DNA from: a bacterium
GTDB lineage: Bacteria > Patescibacteriota > Minisyncoccia > Phycocordibacterales > DATDWN01
NCBI GenBank assembly: GCA_037134875.1
Contig: JBAXLH010000001.1
Coordinates: 5,322-69,321, forward strand
Direction of reading: 5' to 3'
DNA: 64,000 nt
This document shows positions 6,512 through 45,744 of the stretch, piece after piece; within the stretch, counting starts at the first letter, position 1; each line of letters opens with the position of its first letter. The notes beneath the pieces were generated by a model, which worked only from the letters and a program-made list of their open reading frames with translations, had not been told where the DNA came from and made no database searches. The position numbers and the translations under genes are program-made.

Positions 6512-7543
6512 TTACATCAAAAATGATGCAGTCTTTACGACATGCTCCATAAGCGAATAAGTGTACCCCATTTCATTATCATACCATGCCATAACTTTGA
6601 CAAGATTGCCGTCGATAACTCGCGTGAGTCCGAGATCCGCAATTGACGCATAGTGACTACCCAGAATATCCGAAGAAACGATTGGGTCTTTGGTCACAGT
6701 AAATATTTTTGCCCAATGTGGATCCTGTGATGCTTTCTCCAGAATACTGTTTACTTCCTCAACTGTTGTATTTCTTTTTGAAATAAATGTAATGTCAGCA
6801 ATCGAGCCCGCAATGATAGGAACTCGAATTGAAAGTCCGTCGAACTTGCCCTTGAGATCTGTAATTACTTTTGTGGTTGCTTTTGCTGCACCAGTAGATG
6901 TTGGAATCATATTTTGTGCTGCAGCTCTTCCCTCTTTGAAATCTTTTTTGTTTGGACCATCGACAATACTCTGACTTGCGGTATACCCATGCACAGTATT
7001 GAGAACAGCTTTTTCAATACCGATTGTTTGATTCAAAATCTGAATAACTGGACTACCGGCATTTGTCGTACACGATGCGTTTGATGTCACTATTCTGTCT
7101 TTGAGTGTGTCGCAGTTGATACCCATAAGGATTGTGGCATCGGACTCTGATCGTGGTTCGTCTTTGACCGGAGCTGTAATCACGACTTTTTTCGCCCCTG
7201 CGGTAATGTGTACACTAGCTTTTTCAAATGACGTAAATGCACCCGTGGATTCAACCACAACATGAATACCCAATGTTCCCCATGGAAGTTGTGTTGGATC
7301 CTTTTCTGACAAGAACAAAATTTCTCGTCCATTTACTGATATCTTTTTCTTGTCCTCTGACACTGTAACAGATGAAAATTTCTGCCCATATGCAGTATCG
7401 TATTTTATAAGATAGGCGATATTGTCAATGTCTCCCAAATCATTGATTGCAACAACCTCCACATCTTCTCGAGTTTCAGCAATACGCAAAAATGCTCTGC
7501 CTATACGACCAGCACCATTGATAGCAACTTTTATTTTTGACAT
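6512..7543 (-). CDS. gap: Glyceraldehyde-3-phosphate dehydrogenase
   Basis: The N-terminal motif is KVAINGAGRIGRAF and the active site is SNASCTTNA. The start is taken at MSKIKVA. Confidence 0.9.
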   Translation of the reverse strand: MSKIKVAINGAGRIGRAFLRIAETREDVEVVAINDLGDIDNIAYLIKYDTAYGQKFSSVTVSEDKKKISVNGREILFLSEKDPTQLPWGTLGIHVVVESTGAFTSFEKASVHITAGAKKVVITAPVKDEPRSESDATILMGINCDTLKDRIVTSNASCTTNAGSPVIQILNQTIGIEKAVLNTVHGYTASQSIVDGPNKKDFKEGRAAAQNMIPTSTGAAKATTKVITDLKGKFDGLSIRVPIIAGSIADITFISKRNTTVEEVNSILEKASQDPHWAKIFTVTKDPIVSSDILGSHYASIADLGLTRVIDGNLVKVMAWYDNEMGYTYSLMEHVVKTASFLM

Positions 7544-16102: not shown

Positions 16103-18835
16103 TTACTTGCGATATTTCTCCTGAATCTGCCTCTCAATCTCTTCCCTATCCCCTCCGTACGTGAGATACGATAATTGTTTGAGCGAATCAATAATAGCTG
16201 GATCGCCTTTTGGTGGAAATGGTTCTTTGATGTTGAATGCTTTTTGTGAGGTACCGTTCATAAGCATTTTTACATAGGCATTCAAGTTATCAATATTCAT
16301 AAGATCTTTTGCGGTAAACACCGGAGAAAATTGTTTTTCTAAATATTCTGCGTCCTCGGCACTCACTCGAAAAGAAACAATCGAGCCAACGTTACCAAAC
16401 ACTGCATCGCGGATATTTTCCTGAAGTTGGGCAATAAACTGATGTGCAACAGTCAGTGACAGTTTGTATTTTCGTGCTTCAGAGAGAATGGATGAGATTG
16501 AATCCGTCGTAATGTTTTGGAACTCGTCGATGTAGAGATAAAACGGCGCAAAATCTTTTCCGTAGGAGTCCACACGAGAGAGAGCCGCCATCAGAATTTT
16601 GCCGACAAGAATGAGACCGATGAGATTGGCATTTATATCTCCCAATTTACCTTTGGCCAAATTGACGAGAAGTATTTTTTTGTTATCCATTATGTCGCGA
16701 AAATTGAAAGATGATTTTTCCTGTGCCACGATAGGTCGCATAACTTCGTTTGCAAGAAATACGTCAAATTTATTCACAATATATGGAACAATATTTGCAA
16801 GCGATGACTCTCCGCCAGCTTTCTCAGCAATTTCTTTCCAAAACTCTACAATGACAGGATTTTTGCATCTGGAAACTTTCAAATCCCTAAATGTTTTGTT
16901 GGACAACACCCGAGACACATCCAAAAGTGTACAGCCGGTCTCTGGATCTTCAACAACAAGCATCGCAGCATTTCTAAAATATTGCTGGAAAGCCGGTCCC
17001 ATTGACTCTGGAACATTACCATACAGTTTTTGGAATATACTCAAAAGCTCGTTGACCACAAATGTTTTCTGCTCCGGAAACTTTGGATCATACTCAAGCA
17101 TATTGAGGGCCATTGGACGCTCGGTGTAGCTTGGATCAAAATAAATCACATCTTTGTAACGGTCTTTTGGAATATTTGCCAAAATATCAATAATATCTGT
17201 ACCGTGTGGGTCAATAAAACAACATCCATTACCTCTCTCGATATCCTGAATAATAAGATTTTTGAGAAGAACAGTTTTTCCAGCACCAGTTTGTCCAATG
17301 ACATATAAATGTCTGAGTCGGTCCTGATCCTGCATAAATATTTTTGTCTCAACGTTTCGATAGTTGTTGACACCAATAAATGTACCATCTTCTCCCATAC
17401 CGAGCGGTGCTGGCGCAGAAACAGCCTGATTTTGCTTGAGCTGTGGTGATGGTGAAAGATCTGTTGTGTTGAAATGTAGTAGTGATGTTATTTCGTGCAG
17501 ATTGAGAGGCAATAGCTCGTCTGGATTGTAACTCCTGAAAGAAAAATTTCTGAACATTTTTTGCAGAGCACCTTTTTCAAGACGTTTCCACTCGAGTGAG
17601 TTGGAGACAGGATCGGAAAATTGATTGAATGATGACTCGATACTTTTCAAAATCCGCTCGGAATCCGGCCGACTCTGTGTCGAGACAACGATACGCACAT
17701 TTGTTGCTACTATTTCGCTGGCGATTTTTTGTTTAATTTTTTGAATTGCATCATTGTCCACCGGCTTCTTTTCTTCACCCTCTTTTGGTAATGGTTTGAA
17801 AATTTCTTTGACTGTTTTTGCAAAATCTCCAACAAATGTTTCTGGCAGATTGACCGCGTCTTTTGTTGGCACACCTTTTTCTATTTGCTCAATTGCATAT
17901 TTGTATTTTTTGGTGAAATAGTCCCCTTTTGGAGAGAAAACAATTTGAATTGCAGCTCCTTCGCCATCTTTTGCAATCTTTGAAAAACTGTTGATAACAA
18001 CATTCATTGGATCGTAGTCAAATGACTCGTATGTTTTGAATGGATACACTGGCTTTTCTTTTGTGGTGAGATACGAACCGAGCGAAACACCTTCTCCATT
18101 GAAAATATTGTAGTCATTTGTCGCCTCGACAACTCGCGCTGTCGAGAAAATAGAGACAATGTGTTTCTCAAAAAGCTGTTTGAATTCATCGGGCACCGCA
18201 ACATAAAATACAAATTGGTTACTGCCATTTGCGTTTGCAATTTCGAGTGCAATATAATTTTCTTTTTCTTTTTTTGAAACAACCGAAAGCATTCCAGCAT
18301 AAAACTGCTCCATACTGGAAATCACTTCTTTGAGTCCTTTTTGTTGTTTTTCTTTTTCTTCTTCAAGAAGCACAACCTCATATAAAGTCATTCCAACACC
18401 GCGGAAATCTCTCTCGGAAAGGTTGAGATCATTTGGCTTGTATCCACTTTTTACAAATTGCACCAAAAAACGATGAAAATCATCATCGAGATGAGGGTCT
18501 TTCATTTCAGACAAAACAGAAAGTGCGTTTTTCACACCTTTTTCATTGAGTATTCCGAGGAGCTCCTCCATCTTTTTGTCGTGTCGCTCCGGAGCGAGAT
18601 TCAAAACAATTGACTCAGCATCAGCCTTTGAAAGTGCATACGTATCCGAGAGAACATCTTTTGATAATGTGTCTTTATATTTTGAAATTTGTTCGCGAAC
18701 AACGGTGTCGGTATCCACTTTTTGATCTCGTTCGTGAAGCTGTTTTTCTTTTTCGGCGATTTTACCACGCAAGAAATTTATTTCCTCTTCGGGTGATGTA
18801 AAGCGAGAAGTATTTTCGCTCAAAACTTTTTCCAT
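16103..18835 (-). CDS. VirD4/TraG-like (type IV coupling-protein / DUF87-type) P-loop ATPase
   Basis: 910 aa. The Walker A motif is GQTGAGKTV. The C-terminal …YLYIDEFQNITT…LSLTVAHQFIAQL… resembles the TraD/TraG C-terminal region. The family assignment is tentative. Confidence 0.55.
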   Translation of the reverse strand: MEKVLSENTSRFTSPEEEINFLRGKIAEKEKQLHERDQKVDTDTVVREQISKYKDTLSKDVLSDTYALSKADAESIVLNLAPERHDKKMEELLGILNEKGVKNALSVLSEMKDPHLDDDFHRFLVQFVKSGYKPNDLNLSERDFRGVGMTLYEVVLLEEEKEKQQKGLKEVISSMEQFYAGMLSVVSKKEKENYIALEIANANGSNQFVFYVAVPDEFKQLFEKHIVSIFSTARVVEATNDYNIFNGEGVSLGSYLTTKEKPVYPFKTYESFDYDPMNVVINSFSKIAKDGEGAAIQIVFSPKGDYFTKKYKYAIEQIEKGVPTKDAVNLPETFVGDFAKTVKEIFKPLPKEGEEKKPVDNDAIQKIKQKIASEIVATNVRIVVSTQSRPDSERILKSIESSFNQFSDPVSNSLEWKRLEKGALQKMFRNFSFRSYNPDELLPLNLHEITSLLHFNTTDLSPSPQLKQNQAVSAPAPLGMGEDGTFIGVNNYRNVETKIFMQDQDRLRHLYVIGQTGAGKTVLLKNLIIQDIERGNGCCFIDPHGTDIIDILANIPKDRYKDVIYFDPSYTERPMALNMLEYDPKFPEQKTFVVNELLSIFQKLYGNVPESMGPAFQQYFRNAAMLVVEDPETGCTLLDVSRVLSNKTFRDLKVSRCKNPVIVEFWKEIAEKAGGESSLANIVPYIVNKFDVFLANEVMRPIVAQEKSSFNFRDIMDNKKILLVNLAKGKLGDINANLIGLILVGKILMAALSRVDSYGKDFAPFYLYIDEFQNITTDSISSILSEARKYKLSLTVAHQFIAQLQENIRDAVFGNVGSIVSFRVSAEDAEYLEKQFSPVFTAKDLMNIDNLNAYVKMLMNGTSQKAFNIKEPFPPKGDPAIIDSLKQLSYLTYGGDREEIERQIQEKYRK

Positions 18836-22282: not shown

Positions 22283-22639
22283 CTACAGAATAATTTCTCC
22301 CGCAAGTCCATCATAATTATGAGGGTTGGTGCCGAGATCTTGTTTCTTCTCGACAGTATTAAATTCTTTTGCAGCATGCAAGCCGGAAATTTTGCCATGA
22401 CGAGCCAAAATGTCGACCACCTTCTGCAACTCTTCATTAGTCACAAGACCAGGGAGATTCGCGAGATGTTCGTGCATACATACATCAATATGATAATTAC
22501 CGCGGACTCCACAGCGGATAAGAATTTCCTTTCGACCGAACCCAGGTAGCATGACCCAGTTTTCAGCGAGTTGGTCAGCAGTAACCCCGCGAAGATTAAT
22601 TGTCTCCGGGAGATCATTCGTCTCTGGTTTTTCCCACAT
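22283..22639 (-). CDS. Hypothetical protein
   Basis: 118-aa ORF with no recognisable motif. Confidence 0.35.
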   Translation of the reverse strand: MWEKPETNDLPETINLRGVTADQLAENWVMLPGFGRKEILIRCGVRGNYHIDVCMHEHLANLPGLVTNEELQKVVDILARHGKISGLHAAKEFNTVEKKQDLGTNPHNYDGLAGEIIL

Positions 22640-22887
22640 AATTGTCTCCTATATATGATATTAAACAAATATCATTACTTGTCAAGTGTGACCCTACGCG
22701 GAATCACGATTACGTTTTCGGTCAGGAATAATTTTATCGCCATCGCTCAAAAATTTTCCCTACCCGGACTCGCGACCAGTCATGCTCGACTGGTACCCGC
22801 TCCGTCTTTCGATTCCGCATGAAATTGCATACTATGCAATTTCTGTAGGGTCATGCAAAAATCGCCACAAGGGCGATTTTGCTGACA

Positions 22888-22959
22888 TGACCCTACGCGG
22901 AATCGAACCGCGCTTCTAGCCTTGAGAAGGCTATGTCCTAGCCGATAGACGATAGGGCC
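22888..22959 (-). tRNA. tRNA-Glu (anticodon CUC), 72 nt, no encoded CCA
   Basis: The reverse strand reads GGCCCTATCGTCTATCGGCTAGGACATAGCCTTCTCAAGGCTAGAAGCGCGGTTCGATTCCGCGTAGGGTCA. It folds into a cloverleaf with a 7-bp acceptor stem (one G·U), a D-loop with GG, an anticodon loop TTCTCAA and a T-loop TTCGATT. Confidence 0.7.
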
Positions 22960-23057
22960 AATAAAAACAAAACTATGCACTGAAATAATATAACATTTTT
23001 TATTAAAAAATCAAAAACCGTCACGACGAGGTGGCGGAGTTGAAAAATTGTTTGTTT

Positions 23058-44757: not shown

Positions 44758-44819
44758 ATAGACAGTATAAACGATTTTTGTTATCTTATAAATGTGTTTG
44801 AGTAAAAACACAAACATTC

Positions 44820-44842
44820 CGCGGTAGCTCAGTGGTAGAGTG
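44820..44842 (+). pseudogene. Truncated duplicate of the tRNA-Asn 5' end (23 nt identical: tccgcggtagctcagtggtagag)
   Basis: It is identical to 45013-45035. The downstream sequence lacks a T-arm or 3' half. Confidence 0.55.
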
Positions 44843-45012
44843 AGATTGGGGTGGGACCCAATCGCAAGACCGGAGCGCGACGGCGCGAGGTGGGGTCGCA
44901 GGATTTTTCAACAGAAAAATACCTGTGACGAGCCTGTGTGGTATATAACATTTTTGAACCCCTCTTGATTACTATTTTGAGAATAATAATCAAGACAAGT
45001 TTTGAAATATAT

Positions 45013-45366
45013 TCCGCGGTAGCTCAGTGGTAGAGCGATCGCCTGTAAAGTGCTTGCAGCTTCCTAAAGTAATTTAGGCTGAAAAATGAGGTGAATTCGG
45101 GGAAACCCCACGTGGGCAATCCCGAGCCAAGCCACTTTCAAGTTTTGATTTTTTATATTTAGAAATTAAAACTTGAAAGTGGAAGGTGTAGAGACTATCT
45201 CGAAAGAGAGTAGTTATTATTTTTCAAATAAAATAATCACGAAGCGCCCCACATCCCACTTGTTTATCAAAAATAGATAAAGGATGATGATATAGTCCAT
45301 ACCAAAGGCAACTTTGGAATCAATGTAAGCGATTGGTCGTAGGTTCGATCCCTACCCGCGGAGCCA
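45013..45366 (+). tRNA. tRNA-Asn (GUU) interrupted by a group I intron in the anticodon loop; CCA encoded
   Basis: The 5' exon TCCGCGGTAGCTCAGTGGTAGAGCGATCGCCTGT spans 45013-45046. The 3' exon TAAGCGATTGGTCGTAGGTTCGATCCCTACCCGCGGAG+CCA spans 45326-45366. The splice satisfies the group I rule (5' exon ends in U, intron ends in G). The alternative reading is Tyr(GUA) if the boundaries are shifted by 3 nt. Confidence 0.6.
45047..45325 (+). ncRNA. Group I self-splicing intron (no ORF)
   Basis: About 279 nt. It contains the conserved group I core element GATGATATAGTCC (consensus AAGAUAUAGUCC, P7/S region) near 45283-45298 and ends in G. Confidence 0.65.
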
Positions 45367-45744
45367 AAAAGTTTAAACCCCGAAAGGGGTTTTTACTTTT
45401 CTTGGCTCCGTGGAGCAGAACAGGGTTCTGCGTGTAGGGATCGAACAGTTTGTCGGTTTACAAGTTTAGCAAAACTTGTCGACAAACTGGTGGCCAGGAT
45501 TTTCTGTTTTGACGAAAACAGAAAATCTGAGGCCGATACCCCTACCCGCGGAGCCAAAAAGTTTAAACCCCGAAAGGGGTTTTTACTTTTCTTGGCTCCG
45601 TGGAGCAGAACAGGGTTCTGCGTGTAGGGATCGAACAGTTTGTCGGTTTACAAGTTTAGCAAAACTTGTCGACAAACTGGTGGCCAGGATTTTCTGTTTT
45701 GACGAAAACAGAAAATCTGAGGCCGATACCCCTACCCGCGGAGC
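45367..45744. repeat. Tandem direct repeat, 2 x 190 nt; each unit ends in a copy of the tRNA-Asn 3' end (cctacccgcggagcc) and begins with its inverted copy (ggctccgtggag)
   Basis: The two units are identical (45367-45556 and 45557-45744). Each has a terminator hairpin aaaccccgaaaggggttttt, an inverted degenerate T-arm-like segment (gtagggatcgaac) and two long hairpins. Confidence 0.8.

What the first reader, a model, noticed from the sequence alone, without database searches (positions are those of the whole stretch)
22689..22959. tRNA-Glu locus with a direct 17-nt duplicate and an inverted, palindrome-split copy of the tRNA 3' end
Downstream of tRNA-Glu (22888-22959, minus strand) the tRNA 3' terminus GATTCCGCGTAGGGTCA is repeated directly at 22689-22705. 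An inverted copy sits at ~22808-22850, split by a 26-nt perfect palindrome (agaaattgcatagtatgcaatttcat) inserted between ...TGACCCTAC and GCGGAATCGAA. Direct 3'-end repeats are the footprint of integrase-mediated insertion at tRNA genes (attL/attR). Here the intervening segment is only ~180 nt. That suggests either a decayed integrated element or a tRNA-end-mimicking mini-element. The tRNA-Asn locus (finding at 45367) shows the same theme.
Basis: seen in the sequence. Interest (0 to 1): 0.55.

Follow-up and report, generated by a model that had tools for sequence, protein, structure and literature searches.

The report
Structured mini-element behind a tRNA gene
The repeats next to this tRNA-Glu gene are real and belong to a ~200-base, gene-less, highly folded element from a large family, not in Rfam 15 or in the papers I searched, that sits behind tRNA genes in tiny "Patescibacteria" bacteria and copies each tRNA's tail into its own structure.

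Summary
The tRNA's last 17 nt recur exactly 199 nt downstream. An inverted copy lies between them, split by a 26-nt hairpin. Seven independent assemblies are identical here.

It is not a decayed island or a second tRNA. The 198 nt after the tRNA form one unit on the tRNA strand:
- a terminator-like hairpin;
- the inverted tRNA-end copy (X'), split by hairpin P0;
- a conserved two-hairpin core (P2, P3);
- mini-hairpin P4;
- the direct copy (X).

A covariance model built without window sequences finds the core at E=3.6e-16. About 60 relatives were found in Patescibacteria genomes and metagenomes. Nearly all lie just downstream of a same-strand tRNA, covering at least 13 amino-acid identities. 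Repeat spacing is typically 126-240 nt, and some loci carry tandem arrays. Base pairing is strongly supported by covariation and is strand-specific.

Cores 85-92% identical sit beside different tRNAs, each with that tRNA's own end copied. Presence is patchy: 15 of 100 species loci. I read this as a non-autonomous mobile element. No recombinase was found, so the mechanism is open. Rfam has no such family. The window's tRNA-Asn carries the same theme on both sides.

The parts
22888..22959 (-). tRNA-Glu(CUC), intact. Its last 17 nt (22888-22904) are repeat copy 1 (X/DR1).
   Evidence: ARAGORN; Rfam RF00005 52.1 bits; 17-mer match.
22855..22882 (-). Terminator-like hairpin (GCAAAAUCGCC cuugu GGCGAUUUUUGC) directly after the tRNA. 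With X and X' it can extend into one long hairpin.
   Evidence: Inverted repeat I7; paired in the MFE fold. The simple terminator scan did not call it, because the T-run lies inside the maximal stem.
22845..22853 (-). X'a: UGACCCUAC, the complement of the acceptor 3' strand plus the discriminator.
   Evidence: Inverted repeats I4 and I6; pairs with 22689-22697 in the RNA and DNA folds.
22819..22844 (-). P0 hairpin: the 26-nt 'palindrome', with perfect 11-bp arms at 22821-22831 and 22833-22843. It branches off between X'a and X'b.
   Evidence: L034 has a homologous hairpin at the same position: the proximal 7 bp are the same and the distal part differs but still pairs. L219 and the window Asn units have analogous hairpins.
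22808..22818 (-). X'b: GCGGAAUCGAA, the complement of the T-stem 3' strand and T-loop.
   Evidence: Inverted repeat I2; pairs with 22698-22705 in the folds.
22767..22807 (-). Junction (A)AG, then P2: outer 3-bp helix, conserved GGA/GA internal loop, variable hairpin.
   Evidence: CM alignment; covariation in both P2 helices.
22720..22764 (-). P3: GGUAGG...CCUGACC. This is a compensated variant of the family's GGUCGC...GUGACC stem, with a variable hairpin.
   Evidence: CM R2 54.1 bits, E=3.6e-16, for 22714-22818; P3 covariation and a near-invariant G.U pair.
22706..22715 (-). P4 mini-hairpin ACG-UAAU-CGU, between P3 and X.
   Evidence: Paired in the folds. Compensated counterparts: AUG-UAAU-CAU in L255 and GCG-UACU-CGC in L321 and in L094.
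22689..22705 (-). X/DR2: an exact direct copy of the tRNA's last 17 nt (T-loop G57 to discriminator A73). It closes helix P1 with X'.
22658..22685 (-). Promoter-like site (TTGACA-16-TAATAT) for the downstream 118-aa ORF, starting right after DR2. It marks the outer edge of the element.
   Evidence: 10 of 12 matches.
44819..44936 (+). Same family, 'type A': a 5' fragment of tRNA-Asn (44819-44843), a private hairpin, then a canonical P2-P3 core ending in GTGAC. It lies 76 nt upstream of the intact tRNA-Asn.
   Evidence: CM R2 55.5 bits, E=1.2e-16, for 44857-44936; sequence.
45350..45744 (+). Same architecture behind tRNA-Asn: two 100%-identical tandem 190-nt units. Each has a terminator hairpin, an inverted tRNA-end copy split by a hairpin, two hairpins, and the direct copy CCCTACCCGCGGAGCCA. 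The core is divergent and the CM does not detect it.
   Evidence: Tandem Repeats Finder: period 190, 2.1 copies, 100% matches; sequence; fold z=-10.6.

Best explanation
The 198 nt between the tRNA-Glu body and the next gene's promoter (22689-22886, minus strand) are one copy of a small, non-coding, non-autonomous mobile element. Its family lodges at the 3' end or T-loop of tRNA genes in Patescibacteria.

On the tRNA-sense strand the unit reads: terminator-like hairpin, X'a, P0 hairpin, X'b, (A)AG, P2, P3, P4, X. X' is the reverse complement of the tRNA's last ~20 nt. X is a direct copy of its last 17 nt. X' can pair either with the tRNA's own end (through the terminator) or with the downstream X. 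In the second case it closes a multi-helix junction around the conserved P2-P3 core.

Shown here:
- the repeats;
- the fold;
- family membership;
- covariation and strand specificity of P2 and P3;
- the constant position behind tRNAs;
- the typical unit size;
- tandem arrays;
- patchy occurrence;
- near-identical cores beside different tRNAs, each with matching X and X'.

Inferred:
- The element spreads as a folded single strand (RNA or ssDNA), not as a double-stranded circle.
- The join is at the P3|X boundary.
- The helper enzyme acts in trans and was not identified.
- Because the unit leaves (or supplies) a complete tRNA 3' end plus a terminator, the tRNA stays functional and the insertion is tolerated.
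For: Repeats and fold:
- The repeats are exact and non-random.
- The 171-nt unit folds into the predicted P1a/P0/P1b/P2/P3/P4 structure with RNA parameters (z=-8.4) and with DNA parameters (z=-9.0).

Membership:
- CM R2, built only from non-window copies, hits 22714-22818 at 54.1 bits, E=3.6e-16.

Covariation over 58 distinct copies:
- 97.5% of cells are paired, against 82% in shuffles.
- 11 of 14 pairs show changes on both sides.
- The covariation score is 0.452, against 0.155 in shuffles (0 of 500 reach it) and at most 0.084 with slid partners.
- A G.U pair is present in 56 of 58 copies, so only the tRNA-sense strand can form the structure.

Position and size:
- About 40 of about 50 real copies have P3 starting 48-130 nt after a same-strand tRNA, covering at least 13 amino-acid identities.
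- 41 tRNA-end repeat pairs are spaced mostly 126-240 nt.
- Tandem arrays occur in L092, L255, L302, L332 and at the window's Asn locus. In L255 the context before the second repeat differs from the first, suggesting a different unit type.

Signs of mobility:
- Cores 85-92% identical lie beside tRNA-Asn, Arg(TCT), Arg(CCT), Ile, Lys, Trp and Glu with unrelated flanks; the mean pairwise core identity is 43%.
- Only 15 of 100 species-representative loci carrying this very tRNA-Glu end have a module.
- A 2-kb version carries a GmrSD gene and ends in the same module plus the 17-mer (L011).
- Type A copies are clean insertions of the same core into the D- or T-loop of truncated tRNA copies (L100, L103, L063, L301, window 44819-44936).
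Against: - No recombinase, reverse transcriptase or HUH nuclease lies in or beside any copy.
- No presence/absence polymorphism was seen at this locus: 7 assemblies are identical.
- No clean orthologous empty site was recovered.
- There are no expression data.
- Which helix is selected is unclear. X' follows the downstream copy in L034 (two compensatory changes). It follows the tRNA itself where the downstream copy has decayed in 8 loci.
- Metagenome copies were fished with part of the motif, so invariance of those bases is partly by construction.
- The covariation alignment was fitted to the model.
Confidence: 0.6

Rival explanations
1. It is a host-useful small RNA gene linked to tRNA genes. 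A read-through transcript folds into the junction. Helix P1 imitates the tRNA's acceptor/T-stem stack, so RNase P and RNase Z/CCA enzymes could cut out the P2-P3 RNA, which then has a cellular role. Mobility would be ancient or irrelevant.
For: - Covariation is strong and strand-specific, as expected of a functional RNA.
- The orientation is always that of the tRNA and the position is always just behind it.
- P1 is a continuous mimic of acceptor plus T-stem, including the discriminator and, for Asn, CCA.
- L034 keeps X':X pairing through two compensatory changes.
Against: - Occurrence is patchy among species with the same tRNA.
- Tandem and heterologous arrays exist.
- Near-identical cores sit at unrelated tRNAs.
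- Type A copies disrupt tRNA copies.
- The downstream copy decays in several loci.
- A terminator stands between the tRNA and the unit.
Confidence: 0.2
2. It is a relic attL/attR pair of a conventional integrase-borne island or prophage that integrated in the T-loop region of tRNA-Glu and has since been deleted down to ~180 nt.
For: - An exact 17-nt repeat runs from the T-loop to the tRNA end, the classic signature of integration in the T-loop region (established knowledge of tRNA-targeting integrases).
- L011 shows a 2-kb cargo-bearing version.
- L110 has decayed fragments and an island behind the same tRNA.
Against: - The same ~130-240-nt size recurs at 41 loci.
- The internal sequence is a conserved, covarying unit, not random leftovers.
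- No integrase remnants were found.
- The motif is absent from viral contigs; the low-GC hits examined there are chance matches that lack the module context.
Confidence: 0.07
3. It is a degraded second tRNA-Glu copy. A duplicated tRNA took the module into its T-loop (as in L100), then lost its D and anticodon arms. That would leave acceptor 5' strand, stub hairpin, T-stem 5' strand, module, and 3' end.
For: - The layout of X'a, P0 and X'b mirrors positions 1-7, the central arms, and 49-53 of a tRNA.
- L100 shows the module inside the T-loop of a tRNA-Glu copy.
Against: - ARAGORN and Rfam find no tRNA there on either strand.
- X' is the exact reverse complement of the 3' end. It has A opposite U71, where the tRNA has a G2.U71 wobble pair.
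- X' includes the complement of the discriminator and, in the Asn units, of CCA. A copied 5' strand would not carry these.
Confidence: 0.08
4. The unit grew locally without mobility. Template switching at the terminator hairpin (quasi-palindrome correction) copied the tRNA end into X', and then X' into X, beside a pre-existing module.
For: - The inverted repeat runs seamlessly from the terminator stem into the tRNA end.
- L109 and L061 have a terminator plus TGACCCTAC with no module detected (L109; L061 ends there).
Against: - It does not explain how near-identical cores reached many tRNAs.
- It does not explain the fixed junctions at T-loop position 55/56 or the clean type A insertions.
Confidence: 0.05

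Closest known systems
Integrase-borne islands and their cis-mobilisable remnants (CIMEs) at tRNA genes
   Same: A direct repeat of the tRNA 3' end flanks the insert. The tRNA is restored. tRNA genes act as a hot spot. One cargo-bearing version exists (L011).
   Different: There is no integrase. Units of 130-200 nt are the norm. An inverted copy of the tRNA end and a conserved, covarying, strand-specific folded core are present. The size is implausible for a double-stranded circle.
Elements that use folded single-stranded recombination sites and borrowed enzymes (CTX-phi/IMEX with XerCD; integron attC cassettes)
   Same: An inverted pair of site copies folds to imitate the target duplex. No recombinase of their own. 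Tandem arrays occur. Structure is conserved more than sequence, with variable-length hairpins.
   Different: The target is a tRNA gene, not dif or attI. No R/L boxes or dif-like arms are present. The repeat is 17-22 nt. The enzyme is unknown.
MITEs and IS200/IS605-derived PATEs
   Same: Short, non-coding, hairpin-rich, multi-copy and non-autonomous.
   Different: The end sequences are re-specified for every target tRNA. No TnpA or TnpB is nearby. Insertion is not next to a fixed tetranucleotide. No terminal inverted repeats are shared between copies.
Retrozymes and viroid-like circular RNAs with greater-than-unit-length genomic copies
   Same: The genomic copy is one unit plus a repeated segment, as expected if a unit-length single-stranded circle is cut and joined at a fixed site. 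The structure is compact and branched.
   Different: No known self-cleaving motif: Rfam found nothing. The host is bacterial, no reverse transcriptase was identified, and no circular form has been shown.
Bacterial class C group II introns
   Same: They home to the 3' side of intrinsic terminator hairpins, a structure-based and harmless landing site.
   Different: The core here is only ~65 nt, with no domain V/VI and no intron-encoded protein.
tRNA-like processing handles (mascRNA, viral tRNA-like structures)
   Same: The helix imitates an acceptor/T-stem stack ending at the discriminator (plus CCA in the Asn units).
   Different: There is no T-loop or elbow, and processing has not been tested.

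Membership tests
tRNA-trailer junction elements (family defined here; models R1, R2) | P2-P3 core: outer 3-bp helix, GGA/GA loop, hairpin, GG linker, GGUCGC...GUGACC stem | tested here: met
   R2, built without window sequences, scores 54.1 bits, E=3.6e-16, at 22714-22818. P3 is a compensated variant (GGUAGG/CCUGACC).
tRNA-trailer junction elements (family defined here; models R1, R2) | Lies on the tRNA-sense strand, just downstream of a tRNA gene | tested here: met
   Here P3 starts 124 nt after the tRNA end. Family range is 48-130 nt in about 40 of about 50 copies.
tRNA-trailer junction elements (family defined here; models R1, R2) | An inverted and then a direct copy of the neighbouring tRNA's 3' end bracket the core | tested here: met
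   The same is seen in L012, L108, L034, L219, L223, L252, L305 and others.
Integrase-mediated integrated element (attL/attR at a tRNA gene) | Direct repeat identical to the tRNA 3' segment on both sides of the insert | tested here: met
   17 of 17 nt.
Integrase-mediated integrated element (attL/attR at a tRNA gene) | Integrase gene, or a remnant, inside or beside the insert | tested here: not met
   The 198-nt insert has no credible ORF. Neighbouring ORFs have no integrase domain. None is among the 45 larger window ORFs scanned or downstream of 17 related copies (by inspection of ORF sequences).
Integrase-mediated integrated element (attL/attR at a tRNA gene) | Excision or integration as a double-stranded circle | not testable with these tools
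   Only a general-knowledge argument: 130-200 bp is below the easy circularisation length of duplex DNA.
tRNA gene or pseudogene (second copy) | Cloverleaf detectable by tRNA models | tested here: not met
   ARAGORN finds one tRNA in the window. A permissive Rfam scan of 22600-23000 finds only that tRNA.
MITE | Terminal inverted repeats shared by family members, plus a short target-site duplication | tested here: not met
   Flanks and P1 strands differ completely between copies with 85-92% identical cores.
IS200/IS605-type PATE | Subterminal hairpins recognised by a Y1 HUH transposase; insertion 3' of a fixed tetra- or pentanucleotide | tested here: inconclusive
   Hairpins sit at both ends, and the left flank ends in T in the copies inspected. 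No TnpA or TnpB is nearby. Genome-wide gene content was not available.
Any Rfam 15 family (ribozymes, riboswitches, sRNAs) | Covariance-model match | tested here: not met
   No match up to E=10 over either module copy. The only hits are the tRNA and the group I intron.
TIGR array / tigRNA or IS110 bridge RNA | [quoted passage not shown] | tested here: not met
   By inspection, no box C/D-flanked spacer pair. X' and X are fully complementary to each other. tblastn of the window's Tas-like protein finds no homologue in any of 345 loci. The Tas gene lies 8 kb away.

The most novel reading that the evidence does not exclude
The P2-P3 core may be the active part of a previously unrecognised kind of mobile element. 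It would be a ~65-nt structured RNA or single-stranded DNA that targets tRNA genes by base-pairing. It would build its own closing helix from the target tRNA's 3' end at each insertion, and join at the P3|X junction. The catalyst would be either the core itself (ribozyme-like cleavage and ligation, as in reverse splicing) or an unknown structure-specific enzyme. By re-supplying the tRNA end and a terminator it would stay harmless, and it could occupy many tRNA genes of a reduced genome.
Probability: 0.3. Interest if true: 0.85.

Novelty: new variant of a known kind. Interest (0 to 1): 0.68.

Why it matters
Patescibacteria have tiny genomes with mostly single-copy tRNA genes. Yet here a gene-less, folded element repeatedly occupies the space behind, and sometimes inside, those genes without destroying them.

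If it is mobile, it shows a way of targeting essential genes safely, with target-derived pairing strands. That is mechanistically interesting and could point to a new RNA- or structure-guided joining activity.

If it is a host RNA, it is a widespread structured RNA class that I did not find in Rfam or the literature.

Practically, these units explain contig breaks and odd 'tRNA fragments' in CPR assemblies, and annotation pipelines should mask or annotate them.

Tried and rejected
- Viral origin. Scans of IMG/VR for the split inverted copies of Glu and Asn found nothing. The core pattern scan gave 100 loci; the low-GC hits examined are chance matches that lack the module context.
- Empty-site comparison through the downstream 118-aa ORF. 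Its homologues at 63-82% identity are not next to tRNA-Glu.
- Flank similarity between the sequence after DR2 and the sequence after tRNA-Glu in L103. Not better than shuffles. Only a weak resemblance to L047.
- Known RNA families. Permissive Rfam scans over both loci found nothing. By eye, the hammerhead, HDV-like, twister, hairpin, k-turn/box C/D and group II domain V consensus motifs do not fit.
- Recurrent neighbouring gene. ORFs downstream of 17 copies are unrelated, mostly housekeeping or small unknown genes.
- Link to the TIGR-Tas/IS110-like gene at 30902-32443. No homologue in any fetched locus.
- The third, 76% 'direct copy' at 22755-22771. It is the P2-3'/P3-5' part of the core, and I treat the resemblance to the tRNA end as probably coincidental.
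- Literature. Five searches on CPR/Patescibacteria tRNA-linked repeats, elements or RNAs found no description.

Full report
OBSERVATION. The window holds one tRNA that ARAGORN recognises: tRNA-Glu(CUC) at 22887-22960 on the minus strand (Rfam 52.1 bits). Its last 17 nt (minus-strand GATTCCGCGTAGGGTCA) recur exactly at 22689-22705. There is no other match with up to 3 mismatches in 64 kb, and 0 of 100 shuffles gave two matches. Between the two copies lies the reverse complement of the same tRNA end, in two pieces: 22845-22853 (complement of the acceptor strand plus discriminator) and 22808-22818 (complement of the T-stem and T-loop). They are separated by 26 nt that contain a perfect 11+1+11 palindrome. 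A 501-nt stretch around the locus is 100% identical in five independent assemblies. Two shorter contigs are identical over the part they cover. The repeats are therefore not an assembly artefact.

ANATOMY. Read on the tRNA strand, the 198 nt after the tRNA are, in order:
- a terminator-like hairpin (22855-22882);
- X'a;
- a hairpin, P0 (the 'palindrome');
- X'b;
- AAG;
- P2, a helix with a GGA/GA internal loop and a hairpin;
- a two-base linker;
- P3, a long hairpin on a GGUAGG/CCUGACC stem;
- GAAA;
- P4, a 3-bp mini-hairpin;
- X, the direct copy.
A promoter-like site for the next ORF begins right after X. The minimum-energy fold of the 171-nt unit reproduces this layout with RNA parameters (-75 kcal/mol, z=-8.4) and with DNA parameters (z=-9.0). 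In it, X'a and X'b pair with X around the P0 branch.

SAME THEME AT tRNA-Asn. tRNA-Asn(GUU) at 45013-45366 carries a group I intron in its anticodon loop, which is why ARAGORN misses it. It is followed by two 100%-identical tandem 190-nt units. Each has a terminator hairpin, an inverted copy of the tRNA end (including the complement of CCA) split by a hairpin, two further hairpins, and the direct copy CCCTACCCGCGGAGCCA (fold z=-10.6). Upstream, a 25-nt 5' fragment of the same tRNA (44819-44843) is fused to a hairpin and a further structured segment.

A FAMILY. I scanned one genome per species for the Glu 17-mer. This returned 107 loci, mostly Patescibacteria. Several show an insert between tRNA-Glu and a second copy of its end, and they share a motif with the window...GAAUCGAAAG-nCGGAGC-[hairpin]-CGAG-nn-GGGGUCGC-[hairpin]-GUGAC-C + tRNA end. 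The same motif follows the tRNA-Asn 5' fragment in the window.

A covariance model (R1) and a metagenome scan gave about 60 copies. Model R2 was built from 59 non-window copies. It finds the Glu element at 54.1 bits (E=3.6e-16) and the Asn-5' copy at 55.5 bits, and nothing else significant in the window.

On 58 distinct copies:
- 97.5% of pair cells are standard pairs, against 82% in shuffles.
- 11 of 14 pairs show double changes.
- The covariation score is 0.452, against 0.155 in shuffles and at most 0.084 with slid partners.
- One P3 pair is G.U in 56 of 58 copies, so only the tRNA-sense strand can form the structure.

Two caveats apply. The alignment was fitted to the model. The metagenome copies were fished with CGAGNNGGGGTCGC...GTGAC, so invariance of those letters is partly by construction. 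The covarying positions and the genome-derived copies are free of that bias. Rfam 15 has no matching family, and five literature searches found no description.

DISTRIBUTION.
- About 40 of about 50 real copies have P3 starting 48-130 nt after a same-strand tRNA. The tRNAs are Glu, Asn, Arg, Leu, Ser, Ile, Thr, Trp, Val, Met, Lys, Gly and Pro.
- In 139 low-GC loci there are 41 pairs 'tRNA end + downstream copy'. Spacing is mostly 126-240 nt.
- Tandem arrays occur in L092, L255, L302 and L332. In L255 the sequence before the second repeat copy differs from that before the first, which suggests two unit types behind one tRNA-Trp.
- Only 15 of 100 species loci with this very tRNA-Glu end carry a module.
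- Cores 85-92% identical sit beside tRNA-Asn, Arg(TCT), Arg(CCT), Ile, Lys, Trp and Glu. Their flanks and pairing strands are completely different, and the mean core identity is 43%.
- L011 has a 2-kb version carrying a GmrSD restriction gene. It ends in a minimal module plus the 17-mer.
Together these are signatures of a mobile, non-autonomous element whose pairing strands are re-specified for each target.

THREE CONTEXTS, ONE UNIT. The common unit is [P1 hairpin]-AAG-P2-GG-P3, ending in GTGAC.
- Type B (this locus): the unit follows the tRNA, with X' and X copied from it.
- Type C: the pairing strands are copies of the trailer rather than the tRNA. L319 has a 22-nt repeat of the trailer.
- Type A: the same core, preceded by a private hairpin, is cleanly inserted after a T in the D-loop (L103, L063, L301) or T-loop (L100) of a truncated tRNA copy. 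That copy lies just upstream of an intact tRNA.

In type B, P1 is the tRNA's own end, the terminator, and X'. Type A is then a circular permutation of the closed junction, broken at P3|P1. This fits, but does not prove, a single-stranded unit that is opened and joined at that point.

The split of X' by a hairpin is not an accident of this locus. L034 has a homologous hairpin at the same place, and its X' and X carry two compensatory changes relative to the window. L219 and the Asn units have analogous hairpins. Elsewhere the downstream copy has decayed while X' still matches the tRNA. It therefore remains open which helix is under selection.

WHAT IT IS NOT.
- Not a second tRNA. X' is the reverse complement of the 3' end: it has A opposite U71 and includes the complement of the discriminator and of CCA. 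It is not a copy of the 5' strand.
- Not the decayed stump of a prophage: the size is constant, the core is conserved, there are no integrase remnants, and the motif is absent from viral contigs.
- No tyrosine or serine integrase, HUH nuclease or reverse transcriptase was seen beside 17 copies or among the 45 larger window ORFs scanned.
- The window does encode an IS110-related TIGR-Tas protein 8 kb away. No homologue occurs in any other fetched locus, and the element lacks the box C/D dual-spacer layout of tigRNAs (PMC12045711).

MECHANISM. Shown: the structure, its strand specificity, its position, and the signatures of spread. Inferred:
1. The intermediate is single-stranded. Duplex circles of 130-200 bp are implausible (general knowledge), and the structure is strand-specific.
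2. The join is at P3|X.
3. A helper acts in trans.
4. By leaving or supplying a full tRNA end and a terminator, the insertion is neutral.

I put 0.6 on 'non-autonomous mobile element of this family'. I put about 0.3 on the stronger reading that the core itself or a new structure-guided activity performs the targeting and joining. The main rival (0.2) is a host small RNA that uses its tRNA-like helix as a processing handle.

VERDICT. The locus is an intact member of a widespread family of tRNA-flanking structured elements that is absent from Rfam 15 and from the literature searched.

Noticed in passing
window 30902-32443 (-), with flanks 30300-30900 and 32450-33200: A 513-aa ORF sits in a GC-richer island (48.5% against about 40%). 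It matches NCBIfam 'TIGR-Tas system RNA-guided endonuclease' at 129.7 bits (cutoff 100) and, weakly, the IS110 transposase domains. Both flanks hold repeated structured non-coding units with small GAAA-loop hairpins (GTTC-GAAA-GAAC, ATTC-GAAA-GAAT). These are candidate stem-loop TIGR arrays.
   Followed up: partly
window 45013-45366 (+): tRNA-Asn(GUU) is interrupted by a 277-nt group I intron (Rfam 70.2 bits at 45042-45318). By sequence inspection the intron lies in the anticodon loop (CUGU|...|UAA). ARAGORN therefore misses the gene.
   Followed up: partly
window 44819-44936 (+): A 25-nt 5' fragment of tRNA-Asn is fused to a canonical copy of the P2-P3 module, 76 nt upstream of the intact tRNA-Asn. 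This one tRNA therefore carries three kinds of insert: a 5' module, a group I intron and tandem 3' units.
   Followed up: yes
L341 (another assembly of the same species) against window 45350-45744; L343-L345: One independent assembly has a single 190-nt Asn unit instead of two. This could be repeat collapse or real copy-number polymorphism. Three other assemblies break at window ~44762, just upstream of the 5' module.
   Followed up: partly
L011 4407-6460: A 2-kb insert behind tRNA-Glu in a related MAG carries a GmrSD-type restriction enzyme gene (Pfam GmrSD_N and GmrSD_C). It is bounded by the same 17-mer and ends in a minimal module lacking P2.
   Followed up: partly
many loci, e.g. L012, L249, L252, L277, L302, L319, L326: A hairpin with the recurring loop AAACUGCUUU(G) lies between the tRNA terminator and X' in many family members. 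P2 and P3 loops often read CGACGG or CAGCAG. The meaning is unknown.
   Followed up: no
L109 (~2512-2560), L061 (~2894-2963) and L023 (downstream of the tRNA-Glu at 7096-7168, minus strand): In L109 and L061, tRNA-Glu is followed by a terminator whose stem extends into the tRNA's acceptor strand (TGACCCTAC right after the hairpin) with no P2-P3 module detected; L061 ends at that point. L023 has the same inverted copy, followed by a different structured segment that the covariance model does not detect.
   Followed up: no
window 16103-18835 (-): A 910-aa ORF has TraG/TrwB-type coupling-protein ATPase signatures about 4 kb from the tRNA-Glu locus.
   Followed up: no
L305 2740-3405 (-): A 221-aa ORF lies immediately upstream of a tRNA-Gly that carries a module. 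By eye it resembles a LAGLIDADG-type homing endonuclease. It was not scanned.
   Followed up: no
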